40,424 nucleotides of DNA, taken from positions 1-40,424 of the forward strand of contig JYFJ02003531.1 in the NCBI GenBank assembly GCA_000934665.2, given 5' to 3'. Position 1 is the first letter of the stretch, and the number at the start of each line of letters is the position of its first letter. The notes beneath the pieces were generated by a model that was not told the DNA's origin, searched no databases, and was given only the letters and a program-made list of their open reading frames with translations. This stretch comes from Catajapyx aquilonaris. Lineage: Eukaryota. Below, piece after piece: positions 4,447-37,400 of this stretch. Both the position numbers and the translations under genes were made by a program.

Positions 4447-4474
4447 CCCCCCCCCCNCCCCCCCCCCCCCCCCC
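4447..4474. repeat. Poly-C tract containing an ambiguous base (N at 4457)
   Basis: Run of C read directly; the N indicates the length is uncertain in the assembly. Confidence 0.95.
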
Positions 4475-4569
4475 GCTATCCATGTCACGAGCAGTCACGT
4501 TGGCCCGATCCATCCTCCAAAAGGTCTCCCCCAATTCTCTGGCCCATTGTATTGCATTTTAAAAATTTC

Positions 4570-4950
4570 ATTTATTTAGTTATTCATTCATTTTTAGTTA
4601 TTTAGTTATTCATTCATTTATTTAGTTATTTAGTTATTCGTTCATTTATTTAGTTATTTAGTTATTCATTCATTTATTTAGTTATTTAGTTATTCATTCA
4701 TTTATTTAGTTATTTAGTTATTCATTCATTTATTTAGTTATTTATTTATTTACTTAGTTATTTAGTTATTTAGTTATTTACTTAGTTATTTAGTTATTTA
4801 GTTATTTATTTATTTACTTAGTTATTTAGTTATTTAGTTATTTACTTAGTTATTTACTTAGTTATTTAGTTATTTACTTAGTTATTTACTTAGTTATTTA
4901 GTTATTTAGTTATTTACTTAGTTATTTAGTTATTTATTCAGTTAGTTAGT
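4570..4950. repeat. Compound AT-rich satellite (TTATTTAG / TTATTCATTCAT / TTATTTACTTAG units)
   Basis: An approximately 28-bp unit TTTATTTAGTTATTTAGTTATTCATTCA is repeated to about 4740, then 8- and 12-bp units continue to 4950. Confidence 0.95.
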
Positions 4951-4957
4951 CCTCCCT

Positions 4958-5093
4958 CCCACCGGAGGCGCTGCATTCCCCCATTGCGCAGGCGCAGAAA
5001 GGGATCCAATCGGAAGCGTCGCGCATACAATATAATGTACGACGGGCTAATCAGAAGCCTCGGTCGTACAATGAATGATTTTAATAATATATA
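4958..5093 (+). repeat. Dispersed repeat family, copy A (possibly the 3' part of a non-autonomous Helitron/Helentron)
   Basis: CCCACCGGAGGCGCTGCATTCCCCCATTGCGCAGGCGCAGAAAGGGATCCAATCGGAAGCGTCGCG... aligns with 8111-8155 (+) and 18842-18975 (-). Confidence 0.75.
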
Positions 5094-5659
5094 ATTATTT
5101 ATTCAATTATGGACTTTTCAATACCGGTAGTCCAATAGCGGCCAGGTTCTCCAACCATGTATTAGTGCTGACTGAATATGGCGCTTAAACTACAGTTAGC
5201 TATTAACTGTCGGTTAAAAGGTTGCACAAACTGTACGGGGGGGTTGTATCTTGGTAGTCGGATGATGATAATGTAGTGGTTGGAGTGCCGCCCTGCTGGG
5301 CCTTAATTAGTGGTTGTTTCGTTAATCCCGGAGCAGTATTGAAGCTGGGAGTGGGAAGGGCCAAAGAGGCGATTTGTCTTCTTCATTCTCACCTCGACCA
5401 ACTTGCTCGTGTGAGTTACACGTAATTTCAGGTGTTTTATCCACGCCTCTCTATTCATGCTAAACTGCTTTTTTTTAACGTAGCGTGACGCAATGATCTC
5501 CGCCCTTTTCGGTTCATAAGGGAGTTAACGTGGGTCATGCGGTGTTATGCATTTTTAGGTGTATGACTGTAATTGAGGGTGTTATTGCGTCAGATTGAGG
5601 CGATTGTGTCAGGGAAATTGCGATCGTGCAGGCTCCTGATTTTATCTTCTCTAGATGTA

Positions 5660-5854
5660 CAGGGTGATTCACAGCCCAGGTTTCTAGCCTAGGTGGATAA
5701 TTTGCGAATTGTTGACTTCAGCAAATAGTTTGAAAACCTTTTACATATTGGAACAACGATTTACTTGTTACTGCTGGATGTTGAGTGAACAATCAGTGAT
5801 TACTGCCTCAAACTGCTTTTGAGCCTCTGGATGCTTGAACAGTGTACCGCCCTG
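5660..5854. mobile_element. Possible Tc1/mariner-type MITE
   Basis: TA|CAGGGTGATTCACAG at the left; the right end reads TA|CAGGGCGGTACACTG in reverse complement (13/17 identical including TA). TA flanks and CAGGG termini are typical of Tc1/mariner MITEs. Confidence 0.45.
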
Positions 5855-6814
5855 TACTTTCTGAATTTTTTGCTGCATGAAAGGCATGTAACAGCTACGA
5901 GTTAATTCAGATTTAATAGCATAATTCAGCCTCACTTTTCTCACAGTTAGAAGCACTTTTGCACTATACTCGTAGAACGATGGACAACAAAAAAAATCAT
6001 CAATTTACACTTATTTACTTAGGTATACATACCTATTTAATCATACGAAACGCTGTCCACTGTTCGACATGTCCGAAAGACAAATGATCCCCTTACTTCC
6101 CGTTGTACTTCATTATCCATTCAGTCGTATAACCAGTGGCTCTCTATGTACACCGCCAGATATCTCTTCTTAGGATCCCAAATGACTTCACCTCCCACTT
6201 CCTTTAGAGCCCTCACCGGCAACTGTAAAATGAAGTTATCAAAATGGATGCATTACCCTCGGTTGTCAATGCCATGATAAATGGCATGTGTGACTGATAG
6301 AGGGCCCTCCTGAGTCGCTCCTAGATGTTAACGCCACCTGTCACCCGGTATCACTCATCAAGAAAGAGGTTTATTACATCTACCCTCCTTGGCATGACGC
6401 AATGTTATTTTCCTCTGAGTGACTCTTGAACTGCCCATAAAAGTCGTTCAGAATGATATAATATCATTTAATATTCTTTGGATCCAGATGTCCATGGAAG
6501 ACTTTGCACGGACTGGATAGTGTCCTGTTGTGCCAGCGACACGCAGAGACTAAGATTCACGACACAACCCCGCTGTTCAAATTTTTTTGTCAACCTGAGC
6601 CAATGTCCAAGTAACAGGTTCTGGTGAATCCCGCTTCATTCACTACTGGTACATTGAGTCGCAATGTAGACAATTCATTCCGGAGGGCTTGGTTTATTGT
6701 TGGTGTAAAATAATGCAAGGGGTGTCACACTTTCTGTCTATTATGAACAGTTGTGTTGTCAAATTTGATATGTGGACAGGACTTTCTGTTGTCAGGACCA
6801 ACCCTTGACCTGAC

Positions 6815-6859
6815 CCCAGGCTAGCTCGCAGGGGTGGGTTGGCCCCACGTTGGGCGCCA
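6815..6859 (+). pseudogene. Internally deleted tRNA-Lys(CUU)-derived sequence ending in CCA
   Basis: CCCAGGCTAGCTC resembles the tRNA-Lys(CUU) 5' end GCCCGGCTAGCTC. CAGGGGTGGGTTGGCCCCACGTTGGGCGCCA resembles its 3' part CAGGGTCGTGGGTTCGAGCCCCACGTTGGGCG-CCA, and the last 18 nt are exact. The D and anticodon arms are missing, so it is not a functional tRNA. Confidence 0.6.
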
Positions 6860-6889
6860 AATGTGACATTTGGCGCCCAACGTGGGGCC
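6841..6889. repeat. Perfect 49-bp palindrome (24-bp arms, 1-nt centre) containing a tRNA-Lys primer-binding site TGGCGCCCAACGTGGGGC at 6871-6888
   Basis: GGCCCCACGTTGGGCGCCAAATGT-G-ACATTTGGCGCCCAACGTGGGGCC read directly. Confidence 0.95.
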
Positions 6890-7942
6890 CGACACTATTT
6901 AAAATTTTTGCCAATTTATAAGCTCGAAATTGATACTTTATAGGTTTTGTCAACAATACTGCACACTCGGTAGCCTAATCGCTAAACGACCATCTGAAAA
7001 TGAAAAAATGTCGCCCCATACCTAAAACGTGACGGTGCAACGCGTCGAGTCATTTTGTCCACAATCCACGGTGCCAAACACTTCTGCAGATGAAATACGT
7101 CGCTCCCATAAATCCTCATTTACGATTCGAATCGTATTTATGCACCGAAAACCCGGTGCCTTCCACTGCTGGAACTGTTTTTCCTCTTCTAGCTATATAC
7201 ACCTTCCAACTGGAAGATAGGTCCGATGGGACTTCCAACCAGATTTACGGGGCATCTTCAGTCCTCTGTGAATCTATGGTAGTAGCATGAATCAGCAAGC
7301 TTGACTCTTTTTTTTCTTTTATGTATAAAAAGGCGTGTCCCTAGTTTACGACCAGAGTCGTGCCAGGTATGGTCAGCATCCCCCTCAATTTAGTGCAGAC
7401 CATTTCATTTGGGATCCAAACCGTGGTCATCGCCATTTCCTTTTTTTTTTAAGGGGGACCATTCAGGGAATGACTTGAGATTTTTGGGATGATTACTATG
7501 GCAATTTCCTTGTTCTTATCACAACCAACGGTTAATAAAAATGGTCATTACTTTTTGGACACTGCGTTTTTTGGAGGAGCAAAGAACAACCTTCGTGCAT
7601 TCCATCCGCGACCTTGCCCACTTATGCATACATTAATTTCCTATTCCAAGCACACCACCCATCAGGTCTGACAAGGTTTATTGCACGGAGGAAGAACAAA
7701 AAAAAGGTGAGTTCCTCCACTCTCTGATGGGATCAATCCGGAATTACATTTGTGGTATCTGGTCTCTATCACATGCCATGAAGTGGTACCATTTTTGGGC
7801 AGGAACCTTCAGAAATTATGGTGAGAAAGGTTCACTTTGTTTTAAGAAAGAAAATGTGTATAACTTAGCCATTTTAGAATACCCGTTGATTGTGCCAGGC
7901 AGTCACTATAGTAGGCCTATATAAATATAGGGTATAATGTAG

Positions 7943-8101
7943 ATCGGGTCAGCACCATATGCCAACATCGGCCCAACATCGGATGACAACGTCGGCCCGA
8001 CGTGACAAAAAGTTAACCGTTTTACATTGGCCCGCCATCGCTCCCCAACATTGGCCCGGTGTCATTCGCCGACATCGGGCCGACGAAGTGTGCTACCTGG
8101 G
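7943..8101. mobile_element. One end of a non-autonomous DNA transposon with a CCCAG terminus (CMC/EnSpm-like) and subterminal repeats
   Basis: Ends TGTGCTACCTGGG|TA (8101), preceded by multiple ACATCGGCCC / ACATTGGCCC / ACGTCGGCCC motifs. The matching opposite terminus was not found. Confidence 0.5.
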
Positions 8102-8110
8102 TAGTTTCAT

Positions 8111-8155
8111 CCACCAGAGGCGCTGCCTTCCCCATTGCTCAGGCGCAGAACGGGC
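8111..8155 (+). repeat. Dispersed repeat family, copy B (truncated)
   Basis: CCACCAGAGGCGCTGCCTTCCCCATTGCTCAGGCGCAGAACGGGC, similar to 4959-5003 and to the reverse complement of 18928-18974. Confidence 0.75.
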
Positions 8156-8252
8156 TCGGTCATATAGTCTAAACTTGTAGGCTACCTTAATTTTGTTGAA
8201 GGAGCATATTTTAACAATGTTAAGTAGAGCCATTTAAACCATAATTATGTAT

Positions 8253-8835
8253 GGTGTTCCATATTTTGCAGGCCTGGTGCTATCCTCAGAGTCTCACTGT
8301 CCACAAAATGGATGTAGCTTTCTTATCAAAGATTCATCTCTCATTCCGTTTTTTAAAGGCCCTGTGGCGCTATCTGTCCTCCGTTGGGGGTCTTTTGTCC
8401 AGTAGTAAAGCGTGCTCTAGACTATCGTTCCAGACACATTAGTATACTGGGGGAACAGCAATTTTCTGTAATGTTCCATGTACAATCAGTGTCCTCTTAG
8501 TGACACAGAATTAACCTGGTGGTGTCCTGAACATGACTCATAACCCAATTCTCTGGACAACATGTCCTCCATTTTTCGTCCCCCCTATTTCCCTCGACCT
8601 CTGGCAACATTCTTACCGTCGACACGACGCATACGCAATTTATGTTCCCAATTTTCTTCCGCTCTTTTGAGGCTGGAAGGCTCCATAGCTGGCTGGTCTG
8701 GCTTGTGGAGGGAAGACTCGTGTCCTCTCCATTCTCATTCAAATATTTCTTTCCTCGTGCAGGATACGAGGCCTGAGAATGATCCGGATTCAAGCCAGCC
8801 GCCATTCAAATTCGGGACAAAATGACCCCCCCCAC
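8253..8835 (-). pseudogene. Decayed piggyBac-like transposase fragment
   Basis: Minus-strand translation with stops and frameshifts gives ...SILMCLER*SRAR/YYWTKDPQRRT...RDESLIR/SYIHFVDSET..., recalling the piggyBac/PGBD pattern ILMG...YWS.DP...MSR.RF..I...LHF.DN. A GGGACAAAATGACCCCCC motif at 8816-8833 resembles subterminal motifs of piggyBac-type elements. Recognised by eye only. Confidence 0.45.
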
Positions 8836-11651
8836 ATGCGATTGATTTCGGAGGCTCAGTTTTATGGCGTGAGTGTGCAAGTTTTGGTAGAGGTTATTCT
8901 GGAGGGGGGAATCCAAAAAAAAAGAGCTTAATTCTACCAAATTTGACAGCCAATGTCAAAAGTTTCGTCAAGAATGGGGCACTTTTATTCGGTTTGTTTC
9001 CTTTGTCGCAAATAGTTGGATCGATGCGTAATGGTTGGTAGTAAGAGGATAAAAAATGTTCATTAGCACGATTATGTGACAAATTTGCAAATTCAGCGAA
9101 TAATTCGCGACAAGAAATATGTACGTGCGTGAAATGTATTCGACGAACACGCTTTACGGGGTCAGGGTAATTTGGCGAATAAAAAATATTTCCGCGAATG
9201 TAGTTTGGCGAAAGTGTTCTTTAGTAACGGGGCAGTAAAAATTCGGAATGTTCAAGACGTAAAAAGGTAGGTTGGAAACGACATTGTCGGACAATCAGTC
9301 GAATCTCATCCATTTCTGTAGGAATTATCTGCTGGTTGGAAAATACATGTTAATTTTTCCATCGTTAAAATGACATTACTGAACCTTACTGAAGTTTATG
9401 TAATTTTTTACATGTAAGTGTCCTGGCGTTTTATTACCGCATCGGAAATGTAGTTCTGAGAATGGTCGTCGTGGCAGCCTCTTCTGAGAGTAGCAACGAC
9501 CCGTTTCCAAGGGACATCTACAGGAGTCTCCAGAAAGGTCTTCATGATCCGGCTTTGTTTGAAAGGGCGCCAAAATTCAGTGGTCGAAACCAGCTTCCAT
9601 CTGGCGGGGGTTCATCGCGATCCTTGGTCTCCCTTATACTCGGTAGATGGCAGTGAACCAGCCTCATTTAACCAGACTTGTTTGGACATGTGAAGAGTTG
9701 TCACACTAATGGACATCATACAGATACAACAATGTAACTGTTCTTAGGTTAACGATTAAGTACACAAATTGATATAGAGGATCAAATTTATATCGATATT
9801 AGCTACCAATTTGATAATTTGCTTAGTCACTTGTAGAGGGGAAAACTATTTTAGAAAACTATTTGTTGAGAGCCATTTTTTCGTGTATGGCCTTACAGTA
9901 TAAGGTAGCAGTAAACACAAACCCCCGGATGGGAGATGAGGTCAGGGATACTGGGAATAGCGTTCAACAAAATTGATGGCACCAGCCAGCTTCCACTTTA
10001 GCTTTGCACGAAAGGGGGCAAAAAAAGTGGATGCAGTTAAATTGTTTCATAGAAATAGTCTACCAGCAATGATCATATTTATTTCCGTAAAATGACGGTC
10101 ATTATTACTACAATCAGCGAGACTCTCATGCGACACTAAAAGTCCGGCTGAGTCACACTCTTTTCGTGACAGTCAATAAAAGTGTTTATGGTCAAGTTGG
10201 TCACGATGTCGAAATGGATGTACTTTTGTATGCTGAAAGGTTTTCTACGATGAAAAGAGGCGCACTTAAAGGCATTCTCATAAAAGCAATTCCACGGGTA
10301 CCCATCGCAAGACCGACGTTAAGAACCGGCATTGCAACTTGTTGGATTTTTTTACTCGTCTACAGGTGCGGACTGTGACCAATATTCACTCAAAAATTTA
10401 GCACTTAAATCTACTCATAACATGAAACTGCAAGGTAGTGTAACTGGACTTTTATGTCCTCCTTTTTTACTACAACATTGCAACTACTGTCAAGTGTAAA
10501 GTGCGTGAGCCCATCAAAGTAACGGTATTGCACAAGTACCTCTAACAATGCAATGAGAAAAAATTTATTTGTGTCAAAAAATAATGAAACAGTTGAAAAT
10601 TTCATTTTAGTTTGAAATTTTGCTGAAAATATTTTACGATACGTTACCCAAAATCACATTTGATAGGATCTATACACCTTGCATTCATAATTCCAAACAC
10701 GTGCCAACGAGCAAGTCGCATGGAAATCACGCTTTTCTTGTGGCCACCCACCTTCACAGTCTGGATGACATGACAGGTAATGAATACCGCGCTTCAGAAA
10801 TTACCCCGAATAATACCTGAATAGTAATCGAGTTTTGCATAATACATCACTGACACTTCCAATAACATTGTGTGCCGCTTGTTGCATAATCGCAAAGCAC
10901 TTTGCCCTATGTTTTTTTTTGAGTAATTTTGAATTGAATTTTGATCACTTTGGTGGATACTAATTAATAATTAAGGGTGATTCTCTATTTTAAAAATTGT
11001 TCAAAAATTGTCATACTTAGTAGCTTTTAGCCAGTGATCAGTAACAAGACGCCTTTTAGCCACAAAAAGGTGGTCATCACCCAGGGCAAAAATGATGTTT
11101 GTGTGAGGCACTTCCCATCCCCTACATTACAGGCCCTAAATTCTCCCGACTTGATGCAATTAGACCCTTTAAATTGCACCCGAAACATTGCAAATGGAGT
11201 TGTCCTCTACACGTATAATTGCCAGGAAAATATCAGAGGTTCAGGTGAGGAAAAACAAGGAAAGGAAAAATCAAGAGGCGAACCAGTTGGCAATAAATAC
11301 AAGACCGGAAAATGGATGATGGGTTACTTAGACCCCCCAGAGAAAAAAAAAAGTCAGAATGTAACTCGTAGTAATTACGCTGTTATTATGCATTGGTATG
11401 ATTGGTAGCTGCAAACGGAGGCGATGGTCCCCCACACGTGACTACACATGTAAAACGAAAGGGTGGGTGGTCTCTTTTGACATACAGCAAGTCATGCGTT
11501 ATTATGGTGTCCTGTTTTTTTATATGCTGGAGATACCTTTGTCGCTCCCTATCGACTACTGATATCTTATGAGCGCCAAGTCGTCATTAGGAAGTTCAGT
11601 TGGCAACACTTCATTTTTTTAATTCCCATTTTTATTCCCATTGTATGTTAC

Positions 11652-13640: not shown

Positions 13641-14766
13641 GAAGACACATCGACAGGCCATGTGACCTCTCAGTTAGTGGTGACCCAACATATCTTCGGG
13701 GGGTTATTTTAGGCGGGAAGAGTGGAAACAGTGCGGTATCGATACAGGGTGCTTTGTGGCTGGAAAAGTTCACGTGTGTTCACAGTGTGCAATAATTGTT
13801 AATAGGATAGTTGTGGAAATTTTAAACAAAAAGGCATAATTAAGTGTGTGGATAATAGTGTAATTATGGCCGAAAATTACATGATATTAATTTGGAAAAG
13901 TTTTGCTCAAATTCTCCGAGATTATTTTCTGCATTACGGTAATAAGATATGCCAAAGAAATAATATTGCAGATGGTGATTATTCCATGTAACAATGGGGG
14001 CTATAAGCAATATTACATGACCTGTAACATGGGGTTCGTAAACTTGGTGTAATCATACAGCGCCGTAACATGCTGTAAATAAGTGAGAAGCATATCAAGA
14101 TAGTTTTTGGAGCATTTCGATTTACATCCAAAGCTATAAATGGAAATATTGCTGTCGCTACTTTTTTACAGCGCTGTAATTCCAGTGTAATTCGAACGAA
14201 GCAGGACAATAGTGCTCCGTGTGCACAATAGTATTGCTCTAGTATTCTACCGGAATAAATTGCCAAAACGCTATTGCCTCTAGATGGAATTAATTATTTC
14301 CACACCTACTGTAATAAACTGTAACCCACTTTCTTAACATTCTCGTTTGATGTAATTAGCCAATTTGATCATGTTACAGTCCATGGGATTAATCGGATTA
14401 TAAATTATGACAGTCGGGAATTGTAATAATCACGTCAGTATTTGTGACATGGTGCATCGTACACCAGGTGCAACCCAAATGATTGTTTGACATGCCTTTC
14501 CTAAGGCGCTGCTGACATATTTACAGTATGTTTTAATGACGTAACGGTCTTGTTTGTCCTTGGGGGCCATCGCCATTTGAGTCCAAGTTACTAACTGGAA
14601 GTGACGTCGTAACCCAGTTCATCGTCCGCGACATGCGTCAATACTATCCTCATATTCGGCCCACATTTGTATAGTCGAGCCAACATCTTGCTGGCTCGAC
14701 TGTACCACCGCCACTGGAGTACCCTGCATCGTTATACCGACACAGGTGCGAACGAGGGCAGTGGAA

Positions 14767-15349
14767 ATGCCCGGCGATCGAGGCTGCGTCCCGGGTGGGG
14801 AGGTGTCCACCATAGGTCCCTCCAACATCTACAGCCACCAGCCACCGCCAGAGGACATCTTCGGACACAATGCGCCCGAAGATGCGCCTCCTGGTGGCAA
14901 CCCAGCCGATGGTGACTGTGCTCCCCACAAGGCTCGTCGGATGTACCGGTCGAAAAGCCTACCTCCTGAGGACCTGGCCAAGAGCCTGGCTGTGAGACGG
15001 CACCAGCTGAGCAAACAGGAGAGCGTGGCCAGCGCTCAGAGCTCTCAGGCCAAAGACTCTGGGATCAGCAGCGAGCAGCCTAGTGGTGTAGGCAGTGACG
15101 AGCCTCAATCCCAGAGTGACAACCAGATCAACCCGAACGACATACAGGTCAATGGGAACTTCCACGAACTGAGACAAAGGGAACTCAGGACACTCAAGCA
15201 GCACTACTACCCTGAAGGAGGATGGGGCTGGGTTGTGGTCGTCTGTGGAGTGGTCAGCCAAGCACTCAGTCACGGGTTGCAGATGGCCCATGGGATTCTG
15301 CTCATAGAGATACTCAGAAGATTCGGGGACAACTGGTGGATTGCCACAG
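14767..15349 (+). CDS. Coding exon of an SLC16/monocarboxylate transporter-like (MFS) protein: about 148-aa low-complexity cytoplasmic N-terminus plus TM1; the gene continues beyond a long intron
   Basis: The ORF 14746..15441 contains HYYPEGGWGWVVVVCGVVSQALSHG (PEGGWGW at 15211-15231), the [D/E]GGWGW signature that precedes TM1 in SLC16 transporters, followed by a hydrophobic helix. First in-frame ATG is 14767. A donor CAG|GTACAG at 15349/15350 (phase 1) falls where the transporter-like sequence ends. The exact 5' end and orthologue are not determined. Confidence 0.85.
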
Positions 15350-15484
15350 GTACAGACAAATTTCATGTCTATGCGCAATGTGGGTGTTCCGATACGTGTG
15401 AATGTTACCGGTCATCATTGGTTGATGCTGACATATACTGAGTGTTCCTGCTCAATTACTGCCTTTCTGTCAGATAGAACAACC

Positions 15485-16285: not shown

Positions 16286-18417
16286 ATACCCAGAGTGCAT
16301 ATGGAGGGTGTACAAGTTAGGATGTCAAATGTGACTGGGAACCCACGGGCATTTATACACCTCTGTCGAGTTGTCCAGAGCAAGTTGGACGCCATGGGGT
16401 AGCAGCCACACTTGTCTCTGACTAGAATCATATGTCCTGAACCCCCTTTACACCTTGGGCCAGCCCCATTTTTTACTGTACCATATTTTTTTTTGTTGTA
16501 ACCCGTAATTACTTCAATGTTTCTGTTTGGACTTTGAACTGTTAAGGACCAATCCGGTCCCAAGATTGTCGTGGTCAGGTGGCCGCATTACTTCTTCCAA
16601 TCTCGTTTTTACGCCTTCTACCTTGGCCTGCTGTTGAGGGGGGTTTGGGTGTGGAAAAAAAGTGTCCACATGGTGTGGGAGTCGAGCCAGATTCAGAAGA
16701 AGGCTTATTGAATCAGACATGTACGCGTGTTGTTTCTAATTCAAGCGGAATCGGATTTGACGGGGAGTGATTTACGTGGAGGCCATTTTGGTATTTGGCA
16801 TCAAATTGGCGTGGTAATTAATGGAAAGTGTAGTTGACATGAAAGGAAGTAGCGATACACTTGGTCCTTCCCATTGAAGTCATTAAAAGTGATGTTGTGT
16901 ACATGCCTAATTTATGACCGCAATTAATCAAGCCAGTACCTGCTACTGCATTAATTTCACTCGGTTTAGCATGACATAAGGCTAATCGTTGATTACACAT
17001 AATTTGCATTCATACAACCAGACCCAAGTGAATCTTCGTCATATGTTGGTACTATGTTGGAAGTCACTTGATGTCGGTTTTGCTTGTGGTGGACGAGAGA
17101 CGTAATTGGATTCCCTGGTGGCAGAAGCCTCAAATTTCTGGTTGGCTTTAGCTCTCAATTATATTACAACAATAGAGTCTGGCGAAGGACAGGCGACAGT
17201 ATGGCGTTATTGGACACTGGTTGAAGATGTAATGAAATTTTAGTCACTTTTTTGAAGAGTCGTGTTTCAGAAAAGGATTTTTTAAAATATTTGATACGCC
17301 ACAAGTTACTTGCACACTTTTCATCCCTCAATCATACATGTCAACGAAATAACTCTGGAAAAAATTAAACACATAAAATACTATCGCTCGCAGATATAGT
17401 TGGCATCATTGCGAATGGATCCAGCAGCCAGATCGCGACATTCGGACGATAAATCCGAGGTAACAGACTAAAGAGTGGAATATTTTGCTGCTCCCTGTGG
17501 CGAGAGGAGAAAGGTGACTGGTTTCCTCGGGTTGCCCACAGCGACATTATTCATCTCGGCCCAACCACCAGCTCTATTCGCAACCTGTCAGCCATCGAAC
17601 CAGTTTGCGCTGTATTCATTGGCTTTATGACTACCGCCGTTTTGCTGTATATGTCTGCAGCAAGAATTTGGAGCTAGAAGAGGGCCAACCTAGACTCGAA
17701 CCAGGGACGCCCACACCCAAGACCAAATATTCGTCTTCCGACTCGTGGCATGTACAAATATCGAAGGAATTTTGGACAACTTCAATTTTATTTTTAACCA
17801 TAAATATGCAATAGATTACATTCAATATTTGCATTCCTTGCACAAACTGAATGCAATTTTTTGCGCATCTTCTCAACTATCTAAAGGAGACGAAAGGTTC
17901 TCAACTCATTTAATGCTTTTTAATGGGACGTTAGAGGAGGGCAGAGGTTACAGGCCGTGACCTGTTATGGTAATGAGCTTAGAATCATGGCATGGGGTGG
18001 TAAAGAACCTGAGGAATGGCTTATTACGTGCATGACACCTAAGTCGATTGAAAAAATGCTAATGACCATTTTCTTCAAGGCATTGCAGGATCCTTCTTTT
18101 TCCACCCATCAACTTGCTACGTTTTTTGGTACCTGCCACTCTCTGATGACAATACCGATTCAGCACGTACTGAGCATGAAGTTATATGTGGTAACCAAAT
18201 TACAAGCTAATTATGCCGCCAGAGATTAGACCGGACGCACCTCGCGTTTAAACGATCGAATTTTGAATATGAGTTGCACATGTTCAGCACGCAAAATTAC
18301 TCCAGCAGCATATGTTACAATAGTAACTCATGACGCCCACATGCATTGCACTTATCTCAAAATGTATGATTCCTTACATAATTTTGTATTATTTGATATT
18401 TTATTTAATTAAATATT

Positions 18418-18496
18418 TGAAGGGTCGCCCCGAATAATGTTGTAAGTGATTATTGTAACCCATGTCACTTACAACATTATTCGGGGCGACCCTTCA
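18418..18496. repeat. Perfect 32-bp inverted repeat with 15-nt spacer (mini-MITE-like)
   Basis: TGAAGGGTCGCCCCGAATAATGTTGTAAGTGA (18418-18449) and its exact reverse complement (18465-18496). Confidence 0.95.
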
Positions 18497-18621
18497 TTTA
18501 TTGAATTGAATGTTTATATTACATTTGCTATTTATTTCACTATATATGCCTTTGCTATTTATTTTTACTATGCATTGCTATTTATTTTACTATACCGTAT
18601 ATTTGCTTTTTGTTTTATTAA

Positions 18622-18800
18622 TAATTTAATATTTGTTTATTTAATATTTATTGATATTAATTTACTATTTGTTTATTTAATATTTATTGATATTAATTTA
18701 CTATTTGTTTATTTAATATTTATTGATATTAATTTACTATTTGTTTATTTAATATTTATTGATATTAATTTAATATTTGTTTATTTGATATTAGTTTAAT
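18622..18800. repeat. AT-rich 36-bp tandem repeat, about 5 units
   Basis: Unit ATTAATTTACTATTTGTTTATTTAATATTTATTGAT; it produces the spurious INLLFVYLIFID peptide repeat in ORF 18446..18799. Confidence 0.95.
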
Positions 18801-18841
18801 ATTCATGCATTGAACATTATTATAGTTGGGTTATTATTACC

Positions 18842-22275: not shown

Positions 22276-23531
22276 CTGTGTCCTCAAGTAAGGAAGGTTA
22301 GGTTATATCACTAAGCAATATGCACCAATTCAGAATTGTTTGAATTAATAATATTCATCAAAGGCCTTTCCACACTTGAAGCTTTTGAAGGAAGCAGAAT
22401 ATTCTCTCACAACCGTAAAATGGGGGTGGTGGTACAGCAGGGGTCTAATCTTGATGGCTAAGAATGATTTTATGACGATGCTGGAAAGTCACCAAAGTTG
22501 GCGATCAGCGAATCGTTATGCCCCGTTTCACTTCGGCTCATTTCCAGGACAGTAACGTAACGTGACTCTTCCCCAGTATCGTGTAATGGCATAACTTTGA
22601 ATGGCGGGGGCCCTAATCCGATTTTCCATGCTTAACTACCATGCTCTTCCTCAGAGGGAGGGCCTTTGACTTAATCGTTCTGTAGACATTTTGAGGTTTA
22701 TTTCTAACCCTGCATTTTGTAATTAATTTTGCTCCTAGGTGAATTTGTGGCTACATGAACATACATGCATATTTTTTCGTATTTCACGTCGGACTTACCG
22801 GGTGTGCTAAAATTAATTTCGACACATTTTACACTCATAGTGTGGCACGAACTTAATGGAATGCCATAGCTTTTGACTTAAGTTTTTGCCACAGCGAAAG
22901 ACTTTTCCACCTTCAGTAAAAGAGGCGTCATTCAACTGTCGCAAAAATCTTTTAGGACACTTTTTCAATTTAGTTGTCGGACAGAGCTTGACGATAACTT
23001 TTTACTGGCAGACTTCATCTTTCTCTCAAACAAAATAAACCGAATGTCTCATAGCGCTCACTCTACTAAATGAGTATTTTTTTTTTCGTGCCATGTTATT
23101 GTTGCTAACTGAGGTGCTGACTGTGATAATAATCCTTGACCATACCCTACGTCTGACAAAAGGTCGAATTAGAAGTGGCGTAAAAGTTGCATCATGTGCA
23201 ATATATTTCTTTTCATTCGGATTCTTGAACCGGCTTCTCCACTTTTTTGTGTGTGTGTGAGTCGACGCCTTTTGTTAACACCAAACTTCTTGTCTGTGGC
23301 TCCAACTTGTATTGTGTGGGCCATCTTATTTTTTCCGCTAAAAATTGCAGGGTGGTTGTTGCATTATTTTGCCATCAAGTAAGGACATTATTGGTTTTTA
23401 GACCCCCCCCCCCCAAGTTGGGCGTTGGCTTGCACTTTATTAATGCTTCCAGATGAGACGATGTAACATGTGGGAACACAAGATGTTTGACCTGCATTGT
23501 TGGGACTATGGCTTTAGCAGTGATTTCTTAA

Positions 23532-24028
23532 AGGGACAATCCACTCAAAATGCAAGTTGGGCTCTAAATATCGGGCAAAAAATCTTGATTCCGAGTGTAT
23601 AAGCAGTTTTTTTGAGAGACGAACGGTAAGGCCAGGGCGAGCCGTCAAAGTTAGGCAATTCGCATCTGCCGCAAAACAGCAGCGCCTCCCCCGGGACTGG
23701 GCAGAAATTTGGATAATCTTGCGCCATCTTGATCCACGCCATGGTCCGCGCCATCTTTGGTCCGTCCCACAGGTTTATCCCGCCACCTCTTGACCCAACC
23801 CGACTTTCAGCCCTAAATCACTTTCGCCTAGTGCCCGGTGGCGGCGCTCACGGCGGTGGCGGACTGAGCTGGCGGGGAAGCTCATTAGCAGACGACGCAA
23901 ATTCTGAGTCTTTAACGCCTCGTCCTGGCTTTTCTGTTCCGCGTAGAAAAAAACCGATTGCACCTTCGGAATCAGGATTTTTTGCCCGATTTTTAGAGGC
24001 CAACTTGCATTTTGAGTGGAGTGTCCCT
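23532..24028. mobile_element. 497-bp non-autonomous Kolobok-type DNA transposon (MITE) with TTAA target-site duplication
   Basis: TTAA|AGGGACAATCCACTCAAAATGCAAGTTGGGCTCTAAATATCGGGCAAAAAATCTTGATTCCGA ... TCGGAATCAGGATTTTTTGCCCGATTTTTAGAGGCCAACTTGCATTTTGAGTGGAGTGTCCCT|TTAA. TIRs are 63 bp with 4 mismatches. AG...CT termini with TTAA fit Kolobok rather than piggyBac (CCC...GGG). Confidence 0.85.
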
Positions 24029-24172
24029 TTAACCTATTAGAAATTATTCAAAATATTGTTATTTACATGCAGTACCCATTTTCAAAAAAAAAAATGGGCA
24101 TGTCCTAAATATTTCGATCTGTACATTGTAGGGTTTCAAAACAGCATTTCTTTTGTAGCGCACTGTACCTAC

Positions 24173-33110: not shown

Positions 33111-33172
33111 AATAAATTAAATCAAACGTAAAATATTGAAACCGCGTCTCTATATGATGCTGGGGCACATTA
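33111..33172 (+). repeat. 62-bp direct repeat, copy 1
   Basis: AATAAATTAAATCAAACGTAAAATATTGAAACCGCGTCTCTATATGATGCTGGGGCACATTA; 4 mismatches to 34370-34431. Confidence 0.9.
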
Positions 33173-34369
33173 GCTTTGGAAAACGTAAAACAGCGTCTTT
33201 GGAGCCGAGACACCTAGCGATAGTCCGATGAACTTGCAGCAATGATTGTCTTCATCTCTCGGTCCGCAATAGTAGCCAATGCACTAAGGTGTACTATCCC
33301 AAAAGCACCCAGCGTAATTGGCCCATTTCCTGCTATCCACTAGGGAAGACTATATTTTAGCATGCATACCCTATCACAAAAATAATAGCCCAATAAGCCT
33401 TACCGATCGTCACGAAGAACGATAACATCTTGCCATGAGAAAGCACTTATAAAGAATCACGACTCATTCCCCCAAAGTTTACTGCCAGCCCATTTCATCA
33501 AAAGCGGCCCTGCAACTCCATATTACTGTGACTCTGCAAAAACACCCGGTTTTTTCATCATTTTAATTTCAATTAATATTTCGCCAGCACGTGGATACAT
33601 ACACTCTTATTAGCACTAGGTATGTTGGGAGAAATCTACTTATTCAGTGAAAGGTAAATACTTTTGTTCACCTGAGCAATTCTCATTTGCCACTCATTCA
33701 TTTTTCATCTATTTATTGGAGAAGTTAAGTTGTGAATGAATTTAAGTAGAAATGGCGATTTCAATGGAATATGCATGTAAAGTGCTTCGGTTTTAATTAT
33801 AAAATTTTAAGTGGAAGAAAATGCTCAATTCTTTTCCCCTCCATTAGGTGGAAAATTGTACAGCCCTGAAAACAGGTCCGAAAATATTTCCCTTTGAACT
33901 ACCGAGGGTAGACCCAATCCTGGCTACAAAAACAACCGCCAAGAAATGATGTGTGGACTGTAATGGCGGTTAAAAGTGGGGCCGGGAGCCTGGCTCTAAA
34001 TCCGGGCCAGTAAACAAGAAGATTACTTACGACACCTTCACCTGCTTCAGTAATCCGAGTTATGTCAGGGTTGGATTGGAGGCAAATCCCTTTTGGCAGC
34101 CAAAATTGATGGGGACGTTGAGCATTATGCAAGTTTGAGGTGGTGTAAAAATTAGTGGAAGGTTCTTTTGGCGTGCTCACGTGTGCACCTGGAGACGGTC
34201 GCAATTGGGTTATAAAAGGTAGGGTCATAAAACTCATTGGCACCTTAGGCGAATAAAAAAAATAAATAAAAAGTGGGGGAGATATATCTGATAAAACTCT
34301 GGGCGTTAGCACTACCAAGGGATAAGACAAAGTTTGAAACAAATTTTATGACAATTTGAATTTGAACCG

Positions 34370-34431
34370 AATAAATAAAATCAAACGTAAAATATTGAAA
34401 CAGCGTCTCTGTATGATGCTGCGGCACATTA
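34370..34431 (+). repeat. 62-bp direct repeat, copy 2
   Basis: AATAAATAAAATCAAACGTAAAATATTGAAACAGCGTCTCTGTATGATGCTGCGGCACATTA. Confidence 0.9.
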
Positions 34432-37400
34432 ACATATGAAGAACTGGAACAATATATATAGTTTTTAAATTCAATAATTTCAATAATTCACCTTGATAGA
34501 GGTGGTTGCATAGACTTTTCTTGATATACTATTCTTCCCAGACTATCTACCGTTTTTTTGTTCAATTCAATAGATTGATACTGTCGTCCAACCACGAGCC
34601 AACTACTTTACGAGTTACGGTTCATGGAATTTCTCCGTTTTCCGGGGAAGACTTTTCAATCTGCAAGATTGAAGGCACTTTTCCCTTTTTATTCCGCCAA
34701 TGAATGCTTTTTATGCATCGTAGTTATTTGTCATATTGAGAATATAACACAACTTTCATACATAATGTGTCCATAGAGTACAAACAGACTCGTAAATATC
34801 GGATGATGGCTGCGATGGATGAAAACTGCTGCAGTGTGACTGTCCATCATAGAGGGCGCATCCGTCCTCTCATACCACTACTGCCACTCTCAGGTCGTGC
34901 CAGGTACAGCTCAGACAAACAAACGGAAAGAGAGACAGAGGCGATTACATTGTGTGATGACATTGACCACAAATAATTCTGGCAATGTCAGTTCCTAATT
35001 TTATACCTTGCTAGAGTGCTGATGGTCGCCTGAGTCCTTTTTACCATACATGTATCAACTAGTTTCTAAGTGAATTGAAAGCAAAATTCTCTCTGGCTTG
35101 ACTTCCTTCTTCCTGACAATCGATCCTCCCTGGTGGAGAGACAATTGAGCTGAAGAATGCGGGGGAGAGGAACGTTGTGGTTGGCTGAAGGAACCGGAGG
35201 TTAAAAGAAGAAGAGGGTTTAAAAAATGACAATGCCGACAGGTACTTCTGCCACCCCTGGATGAATAATTACCACCAGGTTTTCCACCCGCATTCCTAAA
35301 CTCCAAGACATTCCAAGTTGCAATTAGATATATCTTTTTTTACATTATTTTCTTCTTGGTAAGATAGAGACGTCATATCGTGGTCCTTGCGACCCTGCAG
35401 CACAATTTGTCAGTAGGAGTATAGCCGTCGTTCTCCTGATGTCTCCTGCCGATAGTTCAACCATCATAAGTTACCCGTAGTACGTGTGGGTGTCATCGAT
35501 AAGAAAAATTCCGGTTCTTCAAGACTCAACAACACAACAGTTTATTCCCCAACGACTTTCGATAGTTAAAAAAAACTTGGCCAAAATAGTCAAAATGTGT
35601 ATCGTCAGGTAATTGACCCGGACCACCCCCAAAAAGGACAACGACTTATTGGCAAGGAAGGTCATGTCCCCCCGATTTATACTGCTCTTTTTCAACTGGT
35701 CCTCACACACTTTAGTCCTGAAGATATTCTAGGCTGATAAATGTTTCTGGATCCTGACAATGGAGACCTAGCGCTTTAACTTGTTTGTTAGAAGCGTTTG
35801 GGTCAGTCGGTTTCAAACGGATTAGGAGAATTGATAGGTTGCGGTTTTTTGTGTGGTGTCCTATTATGTTTTTATAGCCCGATGAATTGCTTTCGGTTGT
35901 AAGAAAAATTACCGTTTGGTTATTACTGCGGTGGTAAGCTTAGTAGTTGGTTGACCCCAGTTCGTTACCAGTGAAGCCAAGACATTTGAAAAGTGTAGCC
36001 ATTTTGGCTACAGAAAAAAAATCGCGGCAATGTGACCTATATTCAGTCACGGCTTAATATCATATAATTAATTTTAATTTCCTTTAATCGTTGCAGTAAT
36101 TCTGATTGCAATATTAGGTGGCATATCTAGTTCAGTAATATAAATTAATACAGCCTTAATCGTCTCACCAAAACGCAAACCAGGCTCTATATCTAAAACC
36201 CTCCCATAAATAATATTCTTATTGACCCAACTTTCCCATTATATCAGGAAAAGATCCCATGTAGCGCGAGAACCCTGCACAAATCAGCCACTTATAAAAA
36301 AATATACCAGCCAAAACTTATCGTCGCCGAGACAGCATGAATAAAAAATGAAGCTTATTCAAGAAGTTCAGCCAAGTTGTGCAAGTCTGGGGCGGTATAT
36401 GGCTCACTATATACAGTCTTTCGTTGGCTCTGGTCATGGTCGGAGGAAGGGAAAAGGATGTTTGATTTTAATGGGCGAGGATGCCACTGATATTGTTGGT
36501 AGTGAATATGAACTTTGAATGAATCGACGTATCGATGCAACATGCTTTTCTGCTCTTTCGCCTCCTGCGGAAAAGGATGACCTCGGAGGTCAATATTTAG
36601 TCCAATGTGCTAAAAACCTTCCCCGTTAAAAACTACCCCTAATGATCACCCTGGCTCATACGTCGAGGCCTCCGTATTGATTTGCATCGGGAACAAGGGG
36701 ACATACGTTGTGAAATATGTATAAAAATGTGATGTTCTTAAACAGCCCTATGGGCAATGGGGAGTTAATGTAGTTTGAAAACAATAAAAGTTCATTATCT
36801 CATCTGAGGAGGCCAATCACGCCTCGGCTAGCAGGGTCGACTGGTTGTCAATTTAATTGAACTTTTTGTTGTTTTAAATTTATTTATTGGTTACTTATGC
36901 GTGTGTAATTTTTCTACACGAATTTAATTTCTACGTGTTTTGGATTTATTTACGTTCCTAAATTTATTTAAAATTGTGCAACCACTTTTTACCAAATCAT
37001 CGATTGAATAATGATGCATGGTCTTCATTAACACCGGAAACACCCTTCTGTACCGATAAGAAGGTGGGCTAAAAAAAAACAATCTTCCTTGGAGTAATAA
37101 GTGGCCGTAGCATTCCAATGCACGCCTGGAGGCCCGGTTGTAAGACCGAGATTGGGCGGAACACTTCTCTGAATGCTCTACGGTGCTAATGAGACCTCCA
37201 GAAACACTTTATTTCCAACCCAACGGGTTTCTCTGTATGCCATATTTCATTAAGTATTACCTCCCATTTTCCAACCCAGGTGTCACTTAGCTGGATTTGA
37301 TCTCTGACCTTGCGGACTTATACCATCATAATTGCGACGCTGCACATATCTACGAGGAAGGAAAACCCTTTTTGGACTGGCTGGAGGAACAAGTCGGACC

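What the first reader, a model, noticed from the sequence alone, without database searches (positions are those of the whole stretch)
6815..6889. tRNA-Lys remnant with CCA fused head-to-head with its own primer-binding site: possible fossil of a reverse-transcription priming event
Seen: a perfect palindrome arranged as GCCCCACGTTGGGCGCCA (6842-6859), AA, TGTGACA, TT, TGGCGCCCAACGTGGGGC (6871-6888). The left side extends into further tRNA-Lys(CUU)-like sequence (GGCTAGCTC; CAGGG-GTGGGTT). Known: TGGCGCCCAACGTGGGGC is the 18-nt tRNA-Lys1,2 PBS of many retroviruses and Ty3/gypsy elements. CCA is added post-transcriptionally in eukaryotes, and LTRs run TG...CA followed by a short spacer and the PBS. 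Inference: this looks like a tRNA primer extended by a few bases (AATGT) and folded back, or a two-sided PBS cassette around a 7-bp TG...CA mini-LTR. Such a cassette could be primed on either strand, or yield a hairpin RNA complementary to 3' tRNA fragments. If multicopy, it may be an undescribed class of tiny tRNA-primed element.
Basis: partly seen in the sequence, partly recalled or inferred. Interest (0 to 1): 0.7.

Follow-up and report, generated by a model that had tools for sequence, protein, structure and literature searches.

The report
Inverted pair of tRNA-Lys primer sites
A 49-base perfect palindrome in non-coding DNA is made of two mirror-image copies of the spot where a lysine tRNA starts retroelement copying, and it is most likely a dead by-product of reverse transcription, not a new kind of mobile element.

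Summary
Positions 6841-6889 form a perfect palindrome with 24-nt arms around G6865. It holds the 18-nt tRNA-Lys1,2 primer-binding site (PBS) once on each strand.

It is not an assembler fold-back. Contigs built separately from three runs of one sample span both arms without any difference.

The left arm runs on into a tRNA-Lys(CUU)-like remnant. Of the next 28 letters, 26 match a real tRNA-Lys gene; the D-loop and anticodon arm are missing. The right arm does not run on in this way.

The cassette itself looks single-copy, but two parts of it recur on other contigs of the same genome. These are a 33-nt core (6801-6833) and a 31-nt unit, TGACATT+PBS+CCGACA (6864-6894). One other contig carries a second palindrome, with the two units facing each other.

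No LTR, gag/pol or further symmetry lies nearby. None of 151 PBS-Lys1,2 sites in other organisms and viruses has an inverted partner.

My reading: an inert 3'-to-3' joined pair of tRNA-primed reverse-transcript junctions. A template switch by reverse transcriptase is somewhat more likely than a later DNA rearrangement. The "tiny mobile element" idea is not supported.

The parts
6801..6833 (+). Left repeated core. It runs from non-tRNA letters (6801-6813) into the 5' part of the tRNA-like remnant. It also occurs on other contigs of the same genome, which continue differently after 6833.
   Evidence: tables 4, 7 and 8: records 2, 3, 9, 10 and 16 carry it, some with an extra A behind 6819.
6814..6859 (+). 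tRNA-Lys(CUU)-like remnant ending in CCA (6857-6859). The acceptor 5' side and D stem, the variable loop, the T arm and the acceptor 3' side are present. About 26 nt (D loop to anticodon arm) and a few single bases are absent.
   Evidence: 26 of 28 letters beyond the 18-mer match the L055 tRNA-Lys gene; 3 of 4972 random window 60-mers and 53 of 5000 shuffles score as well. ARAGORN and Rfam do not call it a tRNA.
6841..6864 (+). Left arm of the palindrome: tRNA 3' end (G + 18-mer with CCA) + AATGT.
6865..6865 (.). Centre base G. It belongs to the TGACA of the right-hand unit.
   Evidence: (other copies match from 6864 on).
6866..6889 (+). Right arm: ACA + TT + PBS-Lys1,2 (6871-6888) + C.
6864..6894 (+). 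31-nt unit TGACATT + PBS + CCGACA. It also stands on several other contigs, with other flanks on both sides. On one contig it occurs twice in convergent inverted order, 5 nt apart.
   Evidence: tables 7 and 8: records 4 and 18 (twice each), and 5, 7, 10-12, 14, 17, 19, 21.

Best explanation
This is an inert retro-derived fossil, not a gene or a mobile element. Two copies of the junction 'tRNA-Lys 3' end with CCA | AA | TGT(CA)' are joined 3'-end to 3'-end.

That junction exists only in nucleic acid made by tRNA-primed reverse transcription. It is the start of minus-strand strong-stop DNA. Read on the other strand it is LTR end-TT-PBS.

The top-strand copy (6814-6864) is a tRNA-Lys-like remnant + CCA + 5 nt (AATGT). 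The bottom-strand copy (6894 back to 6864) is a short 3' piece of the same tRNA-like sequence + CCA + 7 nt (AATGTCA). They overlap by the single pair T6864:A. The shared 24 nt therefore read as a perfect palindrome around G6865.

Both copies belong to short units that lie at a few other places in this genome in other arrangements.

Mechanism I commit to, as inference: a reverse transcriptase that had just begun DNA synthesis from a tRNA-Lys(-like) primer left its template after 5-7 nt. It went on copying a second such nascent product, by mutual priming or end-to-end template switch with 1 nt of overlap. The double-stranded product was then captured in the chromosome.

Shown: the anatomy, the tRNA similarity, read support, single-copy state of the cassette, recurrence of its parts, and absence of LTR and coding parts.
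Inferred: that an RT made the join (about 45%) and not a later DNA-level event (about 35%), and that the thing has no function.
For: - The palindrome and the two PBS copies are exact. The 18-mer is the published PBS-Lys1,2.
- The left arm continues into tRNA-Lys. 26 of 28 letters are identical to the L055 gene, and it ranks 5th of 120 PBS flanks; the two top-ranked (L062, L055) are long tRNA-complement copies and L117 and L052 read by eye as tRNA copies with an internal deletion. CCA is not encoded in the L055 gene, so the copy passed through a mature tRNA or a tRNA-primed product.
- Contigs of three runs span both arms with no difference.
- The 31-nt unit and the 33-nt core recur on other contigs with other flanks. 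Records 4 and 18 hold the unit twice in convergent inverted order, 5 nt apart, and their two outward flanks agree at 0.82. Record 10 holds both units 21 nt apart in yet another order. Two palindromes among a handful of copies argue for a cause tied to the element's own replication.
- Both axes lie where strong-stop DNAs begin or end: 6 nt past the CCA here, and about 8 nt past the 18-mer in record 4.
- No symmetry beyond 49 bp (score 14 against shuffles 12.5 +/- 1.2, maximum 16). This fits a join of two short molecules better than a large chromosomal fold-back.
- Copies where the PBS runs on into tRNA complement exist elsewhere: L062 (about 39 further letters, one differing from the L055 gene), L052 and L117.
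Against: - No RT-specific mark separates this from a DNA-level join. A 1-nt overlap fits end-joining or a replication template switch equally well.
- The left copy is not a plain tRNA. Its 33-nt core, including 13 non-tRNA letters, is shared with other loci that continue differently after 6833. The left partner was therefore a genomic family member or its transcript, which makes the RT story more complex.
- The C after the 18-mer (the tRNA complement has T) and CCGACA are shared by several copies. They are inherited family traits, not fresh signatures of this event.
- The tRNA similarity beyond the 18-mer is significant but not overwhelming (53 of 5000 shuffles).
- The right arm's flank is not tRNA-like by score (rank 73 of 120).
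- All read evidence comes from one sample, as contigs and not raw reads. The link to the right flank rests on the assembly alone.
- I could not see the other copies beyond 30 loose letters each.
Confidence: 0.5

Rival explanations
1. DNA-level rearrangement. Two copies of the family once lay close together in inverted order, or one copy was broken and repaired by fold-back or template switch during replication. End-joining with 1 nt of microhomology left the 49-bp palindrome. Reverse transcription made the parts but not the join.
For: - The parts are members of genomic repeat units.
- The left core carries non-tRNA family letters.
- A 1-nt overlap is typical of end-joining (established knowledge, recalled).
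- Record 10 shows that the two units do lie near each other elsewhere.
Against: - Two separate palindromes centred on the same 31-nt unit among few copies would need two independent accidents at nearly the same spot.
- There is no remnant of longer arms.
- The breakpoints lie 5 and 7 nt from the CCA, exactly at the primer-cDNA junction.
Confidence: 0.33
2. A functional or mobile two-sided PBS cassette. Either it is a tiny tRNA-primed element that can be primed on either strand, or it is a hairpin RNA gene whose arms mimic and bind the 3' fragment of tRNA-Lys.
For: - A 24-bp perfect stem.
- 3'-tRFs are reported to act on PBS sequences of LTR elements (abstracts of PMC7472051 and PMC12853362, listing).
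Against: - The cassette is not seen on any other listed contig piece.
- No TSD, terminal repeats or coding part.
- Rfam gives only generic hairpin matches far below threshold; the best is 30.3 bits against a gathering score of 72.
- 0 of 151 PBS-Lys1,2 sites elsewhere carry an inverted partner, so it is not a conserved design.
Confidence: 0.05
3. Artefact: a chimeric fold-back made in library preparation or assembly.
For: - Perfect palindromes are a known artefact type (recalled).
- All runs are from one sample.
Against: - Three runs, each assembled on its own by another assembler, give one contig across both arms at the same mean depth as unique flanks (33.9, 26.2, 21.8).
- No competing path from the unique left flank was listed.
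Confidence: 0.05

Closest known systems
5' LTR-PBS junction of retroviruses and LTR retrotransposons primed by tRNA-Lys1,2 (for example the SERV-2 PBS, PMC8775094, passage seen)
   Same: It has the identical 18-nt PBS. The PBS is preceded by ...ACA + TT, as at 6 of 151 sites (ACATT) and in many similar forms in other organisms and viruses.
   Different: Only 3-5 LTR-like letters are present. There is no LTR, no gag/pol and no second LTR. The site is present twice in mirror image, which none of the 151 comparison sites shows.
PBS sites that run on into tRNA complement ('primer read-through' type), found here in metagenome loci L062, L052 and L117
   Same: On the minus strand the left arm reads ACATT + PBS + further tRNA-Lys complement. 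L062 reads CCACATT + PBS + about 39 further letters of tRNA complement, one differing. L052 and L117 also carry internal deletions.
   Different: Those loci have ordinary upstream sequence and no inverted partner. L062 is followed by a 332-aa open frame, with no Pfam family above cut-off. That they arise by read-through of plus-strand strong-stop DNA past m1A58 is recalled knowledge, not tested here.
CCA-bearing tRNA-Lys-derived SINEs and the strong-stop-DNA model of their origin (Ohshima, Koishi, Matsuo, Okada 1993, PNAS 90:6260). I saw only the title, in reference lists. The paper is not held, so its content is recalled.
   Same: A tRNA-Lys-like head with CCA is followed directly by the complement of an LTR U5 end. 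This is the structure of a tRNA primer joined to nascent minus-strand DNA.
   Different: Here only 5-7 nt follow the CCA before the mirror copy begins. I saw no SINE body, tail or TSD. The copy number of the parts appears low.
Self-priming (snap-back) of minus-strand strong-stop DNA and end-to-end template switching by reverse transcriptases (recalled biochemistry)
   Same: Both give inverted repeats at the 3' end of a nascent cDNA with little or no overlap.
   Different: They are described in vitro or in infected cells at the R/TAR end, not 5-7 nt after the primer. I know of no report of such products fixed in a genome. My searches found none, but they were not aimed at that exact question.
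2-LTR circle junction palindrome (recalled)
   Same: It is a short palindrome made of LTR ends.
   Different: The circle junction reads ...ACA(TT)|(AA)TGT..., with the LTRs outside. Here the order is the reverse (AATGT G ACATT), with the tRNA and PBS outside.

Membership tests
LTR retrotransposon / endogenous retrovirus (5' end) | 18-nt PBS complementary to the 3' end of a host tRNA including CCA | tested here: met
   Exact PBS-Lys1,2 on both strands.
LTR retrotransposon / endogenous retrovirus (5' end) | An LTR of at least 100 bp ending in CA just upstream of the PBS, repeated at the other end of the element | tested here: not met
   Only ACA/TGACA stands before each PBS. No direct repeat of 40 nt or more involves the region. 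Best direct match of the flanks scores 12, at chance level.
LTR retrotransposon / endogenous retrovirus (5' end) | gag/pol coding interior downstream of the PBS | tested here: not met
   0 Pfam families in 27 open frames of 59 aa or more at 5203-9693, and 0 in the 11 longest of the 12 frames of 120 aa or more in the window.
tRNA gene | Complete cloverleaf recognised by tRNA models | tested here: not met
   ARAGORN finds 0 genes. Rfam finds no tRNA match even at E up to 10. About 31 of the 58 tRNA letters upstream of the 18-mer are absent.
tRNA-derived SINE | tRNA-related head | tested here: met
   26 of 28 letters match tRNA-Lys(CTT) in register. The head is internally deleted.
tRNA-derived SINE | Many dispersed copies sharing head, body and tail, flanked by target-site duplications | tested here: inconclusive
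   Only a 33-nt and a 31-nt piece recur on other contigs. The rest of 6300-7500 is covered by the window's own contigs alone. The whole genome was not available.
Foldback element / MITE | Terminal inverted repeats with TSD, multicopy | tested here: not met
   Symmetry ends at 49 bp. The 16-nt inverted pair 6170/7405 is at chance level. The cassette was not seen on other contigs.
miRNA-like hairpin RNA gene | Match to a curated family, or evidence of processing or expression | tested here: not met
   Best Rfam score is 30.3 bits against a gathering score of 72, and many unrelated miRNA models match alike. Expression is not testable: no RNA run is listed.

The most novel reading that the evidence does not exclude
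This genome fixes a class of by-products of LTR-element replication that has not been described: 3'-to-3' inverted dimers of strong-stop DNAs.

The window would hold a dimer of two just-initiated minus-strand products (tRNA-like primer +5 and +7 nt). The contig of records 4 and 18 would hold a dimer of two plus-strand strong-stop ends (U5-PBS + about 6 nt).

Such fossils would preserve the primer-cDNA junction. They might also record how RT read the modified T loop: a C instead of T after the 18-mer, opposite the position of m1A58. Their perfect hairpins could feed tRF-like small RNAs.
Probability: 0.2. Interest if true: 0.6.

Novelty: new variant of a known kind. Interest (0 to 1): 0.35.

Why it matters
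If reverse transcriptase made the join, this is a rare genomic snapshot of the first few nucleotides of tRNA-primed DNA synthesis, and of template switching at that stage. A second palindrome in the same genome would make it a recurrent product. That would give a sequence-level handle on aberrant strong-stop intermediates in an invertebrate-like genome. It also touches the old proposal that CCA-bearing tRNA-Lys SINEs arose from strong-stop DNA. If it is only a DNA-level rearrangement of two retro-fragments, it is an ordinary curiosity. A 49-bp perfect palindrome is still a potential fragile or hairpin-forming site in an intergenic region.

Tried and rejected
- Whole-genome search: no genome is held for this window.
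- Earlier findings of the scan: nothing by sequence, place or words.
- Expression: no RNA holder is listed. Run X5, from another sample, laid nothing. Neither says anything about expression or absence.
- tRNA and RNA-family calls: none. The low-scoring miRNA-type Rfam matches merely reflect a long perfect stem.
- The 24-nt arm in viral contigs: 0 matches.
- A larger element around the palindrome: the 16-nt inverted pair 6170-6185 / 7405-7420 is the best inverted match of the 1-kb flanks, but at chance level. Self-BLAST of 6500-7400 against the window finds no other copy.
- Retroelement proteins nearby: none.
- L062 as a proven LTR element: its 332-aa frame has only a sub-threshold TRCF match, so I call it only a PBS site with tRNA extension.
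- The right arm's CCGACAC as a deleted T-arm complement: it is possible by eye but not supported by score (rank 73 of 120).
- The Ohshima 1993 paper could not be read. The 2013 review PMC3747384 does not mention strong-stop DNA.
- Organism: only leads. CpG o/e is 0.77 and GC 41.7%. There is an MFS-transporter-like N-terminal motif in the 278-aa frame, but the atlas scores of 0.79-0.86 are below the level that counts.

Full report
**What is there.** The window is non-coding at this place. Positions 6841-6864 and 6866-6889 are perfectly complementary 24-nt arms around one base, G6865. Each arm holds the 18-mer TGGCGCCCAACGTGGGGC or its complement, at 6871-6888 (+) and 6842-6859 (-). With up to three mismatches allowed, these are the only two matches in 40,424 bases. 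The expectation is 0.03, and 0 of 100 shuffles gave two. Four papers in the library contain this 18-mer. In PMC8775094 the passage I read names it the PBS complementary to tRNA-Lys1,2. As single-stranded DNA, 6800-6900 folds at -40.5 kcal/mol, z = -8.4.

**Is it real DNA?** No whole genome is held. One search for sequencing runs gave four runs of one sample, which may be the source of the assembly, and one small run of another sample. I laid X1, X2, X4 and X5. In each of X1, X2 and X4, one Logan contig of about 2 kb (records 1, 8, 15) covers 6300-6893 with no differing letter and no gap, so both arms and the centre stand on one independently built contig. A second contig covers 6865-7500. X5 laid nothing, which shows nothing either way.

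There are three limits. All support comes from one sample. These are contigs and not raw reads. The passage from the palindrome to the right flank goes through a 30-mer that occurs elsewhere in the genome, so that link rests on the original assembly.

**The tRNA remnant.** ARAGORN and Rfam call no tRNA here. To test the similarity without relying on memory, I took a real tRNA-Lys(CTT) gene that ARAGORN found in metagenome locus L055. Local alignment joins window 6825-6856 to tRNA positions 38-73.

I then anchored the alignment at the 18-mer and read the minus strand. Of the next 28 window letters (6841 back to 6814), 26 are identical to the tRNA complement, one is extra and one differs. tRNA letters are missing in blocks of 1, 1, 2, 26 and 1. 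So the acceptor 5' side and D stem, the variable loop and the T arm are present, while the D loop and anticodon arm are gone.

This score is reached by 3 of 4972 random 60-mers of the window and by 53 of 5000 shuffles. Among 120 PBS flanks it ranks 5th, behind four loci; L062 and L055 carry long tRNA complement and L117 and L052 read by eye as tRNA copies with an internal deletion. The flank of the right arm ranks 73rd, so it is not tRNA-like by this measure. The L055 gene is not followed by CCA, so the CCA at 6857-6859 points to a copy made from a mature tRNA or a tRNA-primed product.

**Copy number and relatives inside the genome.** Outside 6801-6894, only the window's own contigs cover 6300-7500. 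Two short stretches also stand on other contigs.

- *The core 6801-6833.* It includes 13 letters that are not tRNA-like. It occurs on records 2, 3, 9, 10 and 16, some with an extra A behind 6819. After 6833 these copies continue with CGTGGG... and then letters unlike the window, not into the 18-mer.
- *The 31-nt unit 6864-6894 (TGACATT + PBS + CCGACA).* It occurs on records 4, 5, 7, 11, 12, 14, 17, 18, 19 and 21, and in part (6870-6892) on record 10. At least two other continuations follow on the right, and another sequence precedes it on the left (table 7).

Records 4 (X1) and 18 (X4) hold the unit twice, + at 2062-2092 and - at 2098-2128. That is a second palindrome, with the PBS copies pointing towards each other 5 nt apart. 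Their two outward flanks agree at 0.82 over 30 letters. Record 10 holds the reverse complement of 6816-6833 and, 21 nt further on, 6870-6892. By eye, the latter is followed by about ten letters of T-arm complement.

None of the listed pieces other than the window's own covers 6834-6863; five pieces were not shown. So the cassette looks single-copy, while its parts belong to a small family of tRNA-Lys/PBS-bearing retro-fragments found in several arrangements.

**Surroundings.** No direct or inverted repeat of 40 nt or more involves the region. Self-BLAST finds no other copy in the window. The best inverted match between the 1-kb flanks scores 14, against 12.5 +/- 1.2 for shuffles with a maximum of 16. 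None of 27 open frames at 5203-9693 has a Pfam match, nor do the 11 longest of the 12 frames of 120 aa or more in the window. There is therefore no LTR, no gag/pol and no larger foldback.

**Comparison outside the genome.** It also occurs in 32 viral contigs, once each. Many of the sites show the usual ...ACA + 0-3 nt + PBS; ACATT stands before 6 of 151. None of the 151 has an inverted 10-mer or longer of the PBS within 150 nt, while the window served as a positive control. L025 has two PBS copies 444 nt apart behind different upstream sequences.

Some sites run on into tRNA complement. L062 reads CCACATT + PBS + about 39 further letters of tRNA complement, one differing from the L055 gene. 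L052 and L117 are tRNA copies with internal deletions. L055 also holds a CCA-bearing tRNA-like copy near a true tRNA-Lys gene. After the PBS, TCGA follows in 34 sites, CCGA in 6, ACGA in 5 and GCGA in 2 of 151. The window's right arm has CCGA.

**How the join reads.** Other copies match the window from T6864 rightwards, so the right-hand unit is TGACATT + PBS. On the bottom strand this is CCA + AATGTCA. The top-strand copy is CCA + AATGT and then departs. The two copies thus end 5 and 7 nt beyond the CCA and share only the pair at 6864. The common 24 nt make the palindrome, and G6865 is the sixth letter of the longer copy. This is a 3'-to-3' join with 1 nt of overlap.

**Explanation.** The junction CCA|AA|TGT is the junction between a tRNA primer and nascent minus-strand DNA; on the other strand it is LTR end-spacer-PBS. 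This is established retroelement biology, recalled. I conclude with good confidence, about 0.85, that both halves descend from tRNA-Lys-primed reverse transcripts, and that the cassette is an inert fossil.

For the join I favour, at about 0.45, a reverse transcriptase that left its template a few nucleotides after initiation and copied a second such product. The reasons are these:
- The breakpoints sit at the very start of strong-stop DNA.
- The second palindrome has its axis just past the PBS, where plus-strand strong-stop DNA ends.
- Two palindromes among few copies are unlikely as independent chromosomal accidents.
- There are no longer arms.

Several points count against it:
- Nothing marks the join as RT-made.
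- The left partner carries family letters that are not tRNA.
- The C after the 18-mer and CCGACA are family traits, not fresh signatures.
- All read evidence is from one sample.

A DNA-level join of two neighbouring inverted copies stands at about 0.33. A functional or mobile cassette stands at about 0.05, and an artefact at about 0.05.

**Known relatives and novelty.** The parts are known kinds: the PBS-Lys1,2 junction, PBS sites extended by tRNA copy, and CCA-bearing tRNA-Lys retroposons. For the last, Ohshima et al. 1993 proposed an origin from strong-stop DNA. I saw only the title, in the reference lists of PMC9223172 and PMC3531059. The paper is not held, so its content is recalled. The mirror-image pairing is not seen at 151 other sites. 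My paper searches turned up no description of it, though they were not exhaustive. I rate it a new variant of a known kind and of moderate interest.

Noticed in passing
L062:1440-1560 (minus strand): In a metagenome contig, an LTR-like end CCACATT is followed by the PBS-Lys1,2 and then about 39 further letters of tRNA-Lys(CTT) complement, one differing from the L055 gene. A 332-aa open frame with no Pfam family above cut-off starts upstream of the LTR-like end and reads through the PBS and tRNA part.
   Followed up: partly
L052:140-330 and L117:1-110: Two related metagenome contigs carry CACAAAT + PBS + a tRNA-Lys complement that lacks the T-stem and variable region. Just before the PBS there is a 10-bp hairpin. 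Read on the other strand, this looks like a CCA-bearing tRNA-Lys SINE-like head.
   Followed up: no
L055:1079-1152 and 1501-1570: A true tRNA-Lys(CTT) gene lies about 350 nt from an inverted, CCA-bearing, diverged tRNA-like copy that has no LTR-like end before it.
   Followed up: no
151 PBS-Lys1,2 sites in L001-L150: After the 18-mer, 47 of 151 sites have NCGA: T 34, C 6, A 5, G 2. The base opposite tRNA position 58 varies while the next three follow the tRNA. This could reflect misreading of m1A58 (recalled) or simply lack of constraint.
   Followed up: partly
window 4509-4960: A long compound short-period repeat with start spacings of 8, 8 and 12 nt (34 overlapping 176-nt copies reported). 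The window's single N lies upstream of it (about 4450-4470, judged from the X in the frames).
   Followed up: no
window 18403-18511 and 18583-18813: A 47-nt inverted repeat (91%, 15 nt apart) lies next to an AT-rich tandem array with alternating 15 and 21 nt spacing.
   Followed up: no
window 23528-24032: An inverted repeat with 162-nt arms (75% complementary) 181 nt apart. It is a possible old foldback or MITE-like element.
   Followed up: no
window 33111-33192 and 34370-34451: An 82-nt direct repeat at 84% identity, 1259 nt apart.
   Followed up: no
window 14605-15441 (+): A 278-aa open frame whose C-terminal part (…YYPEGGWGWVVV…) looks by eye like the N-terminus of an MFS or monocarboxylate transporter. 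Pfam finds nothing. Atlas hits (Nodulin-like, OATP) score 0.79-0.86, which are leads only.
   Followed up: partly
window 7121-7136: A 16-nt perfect palindrome, E 0.03 in the self-BLAST. It is probably chance.
   Followed up: no
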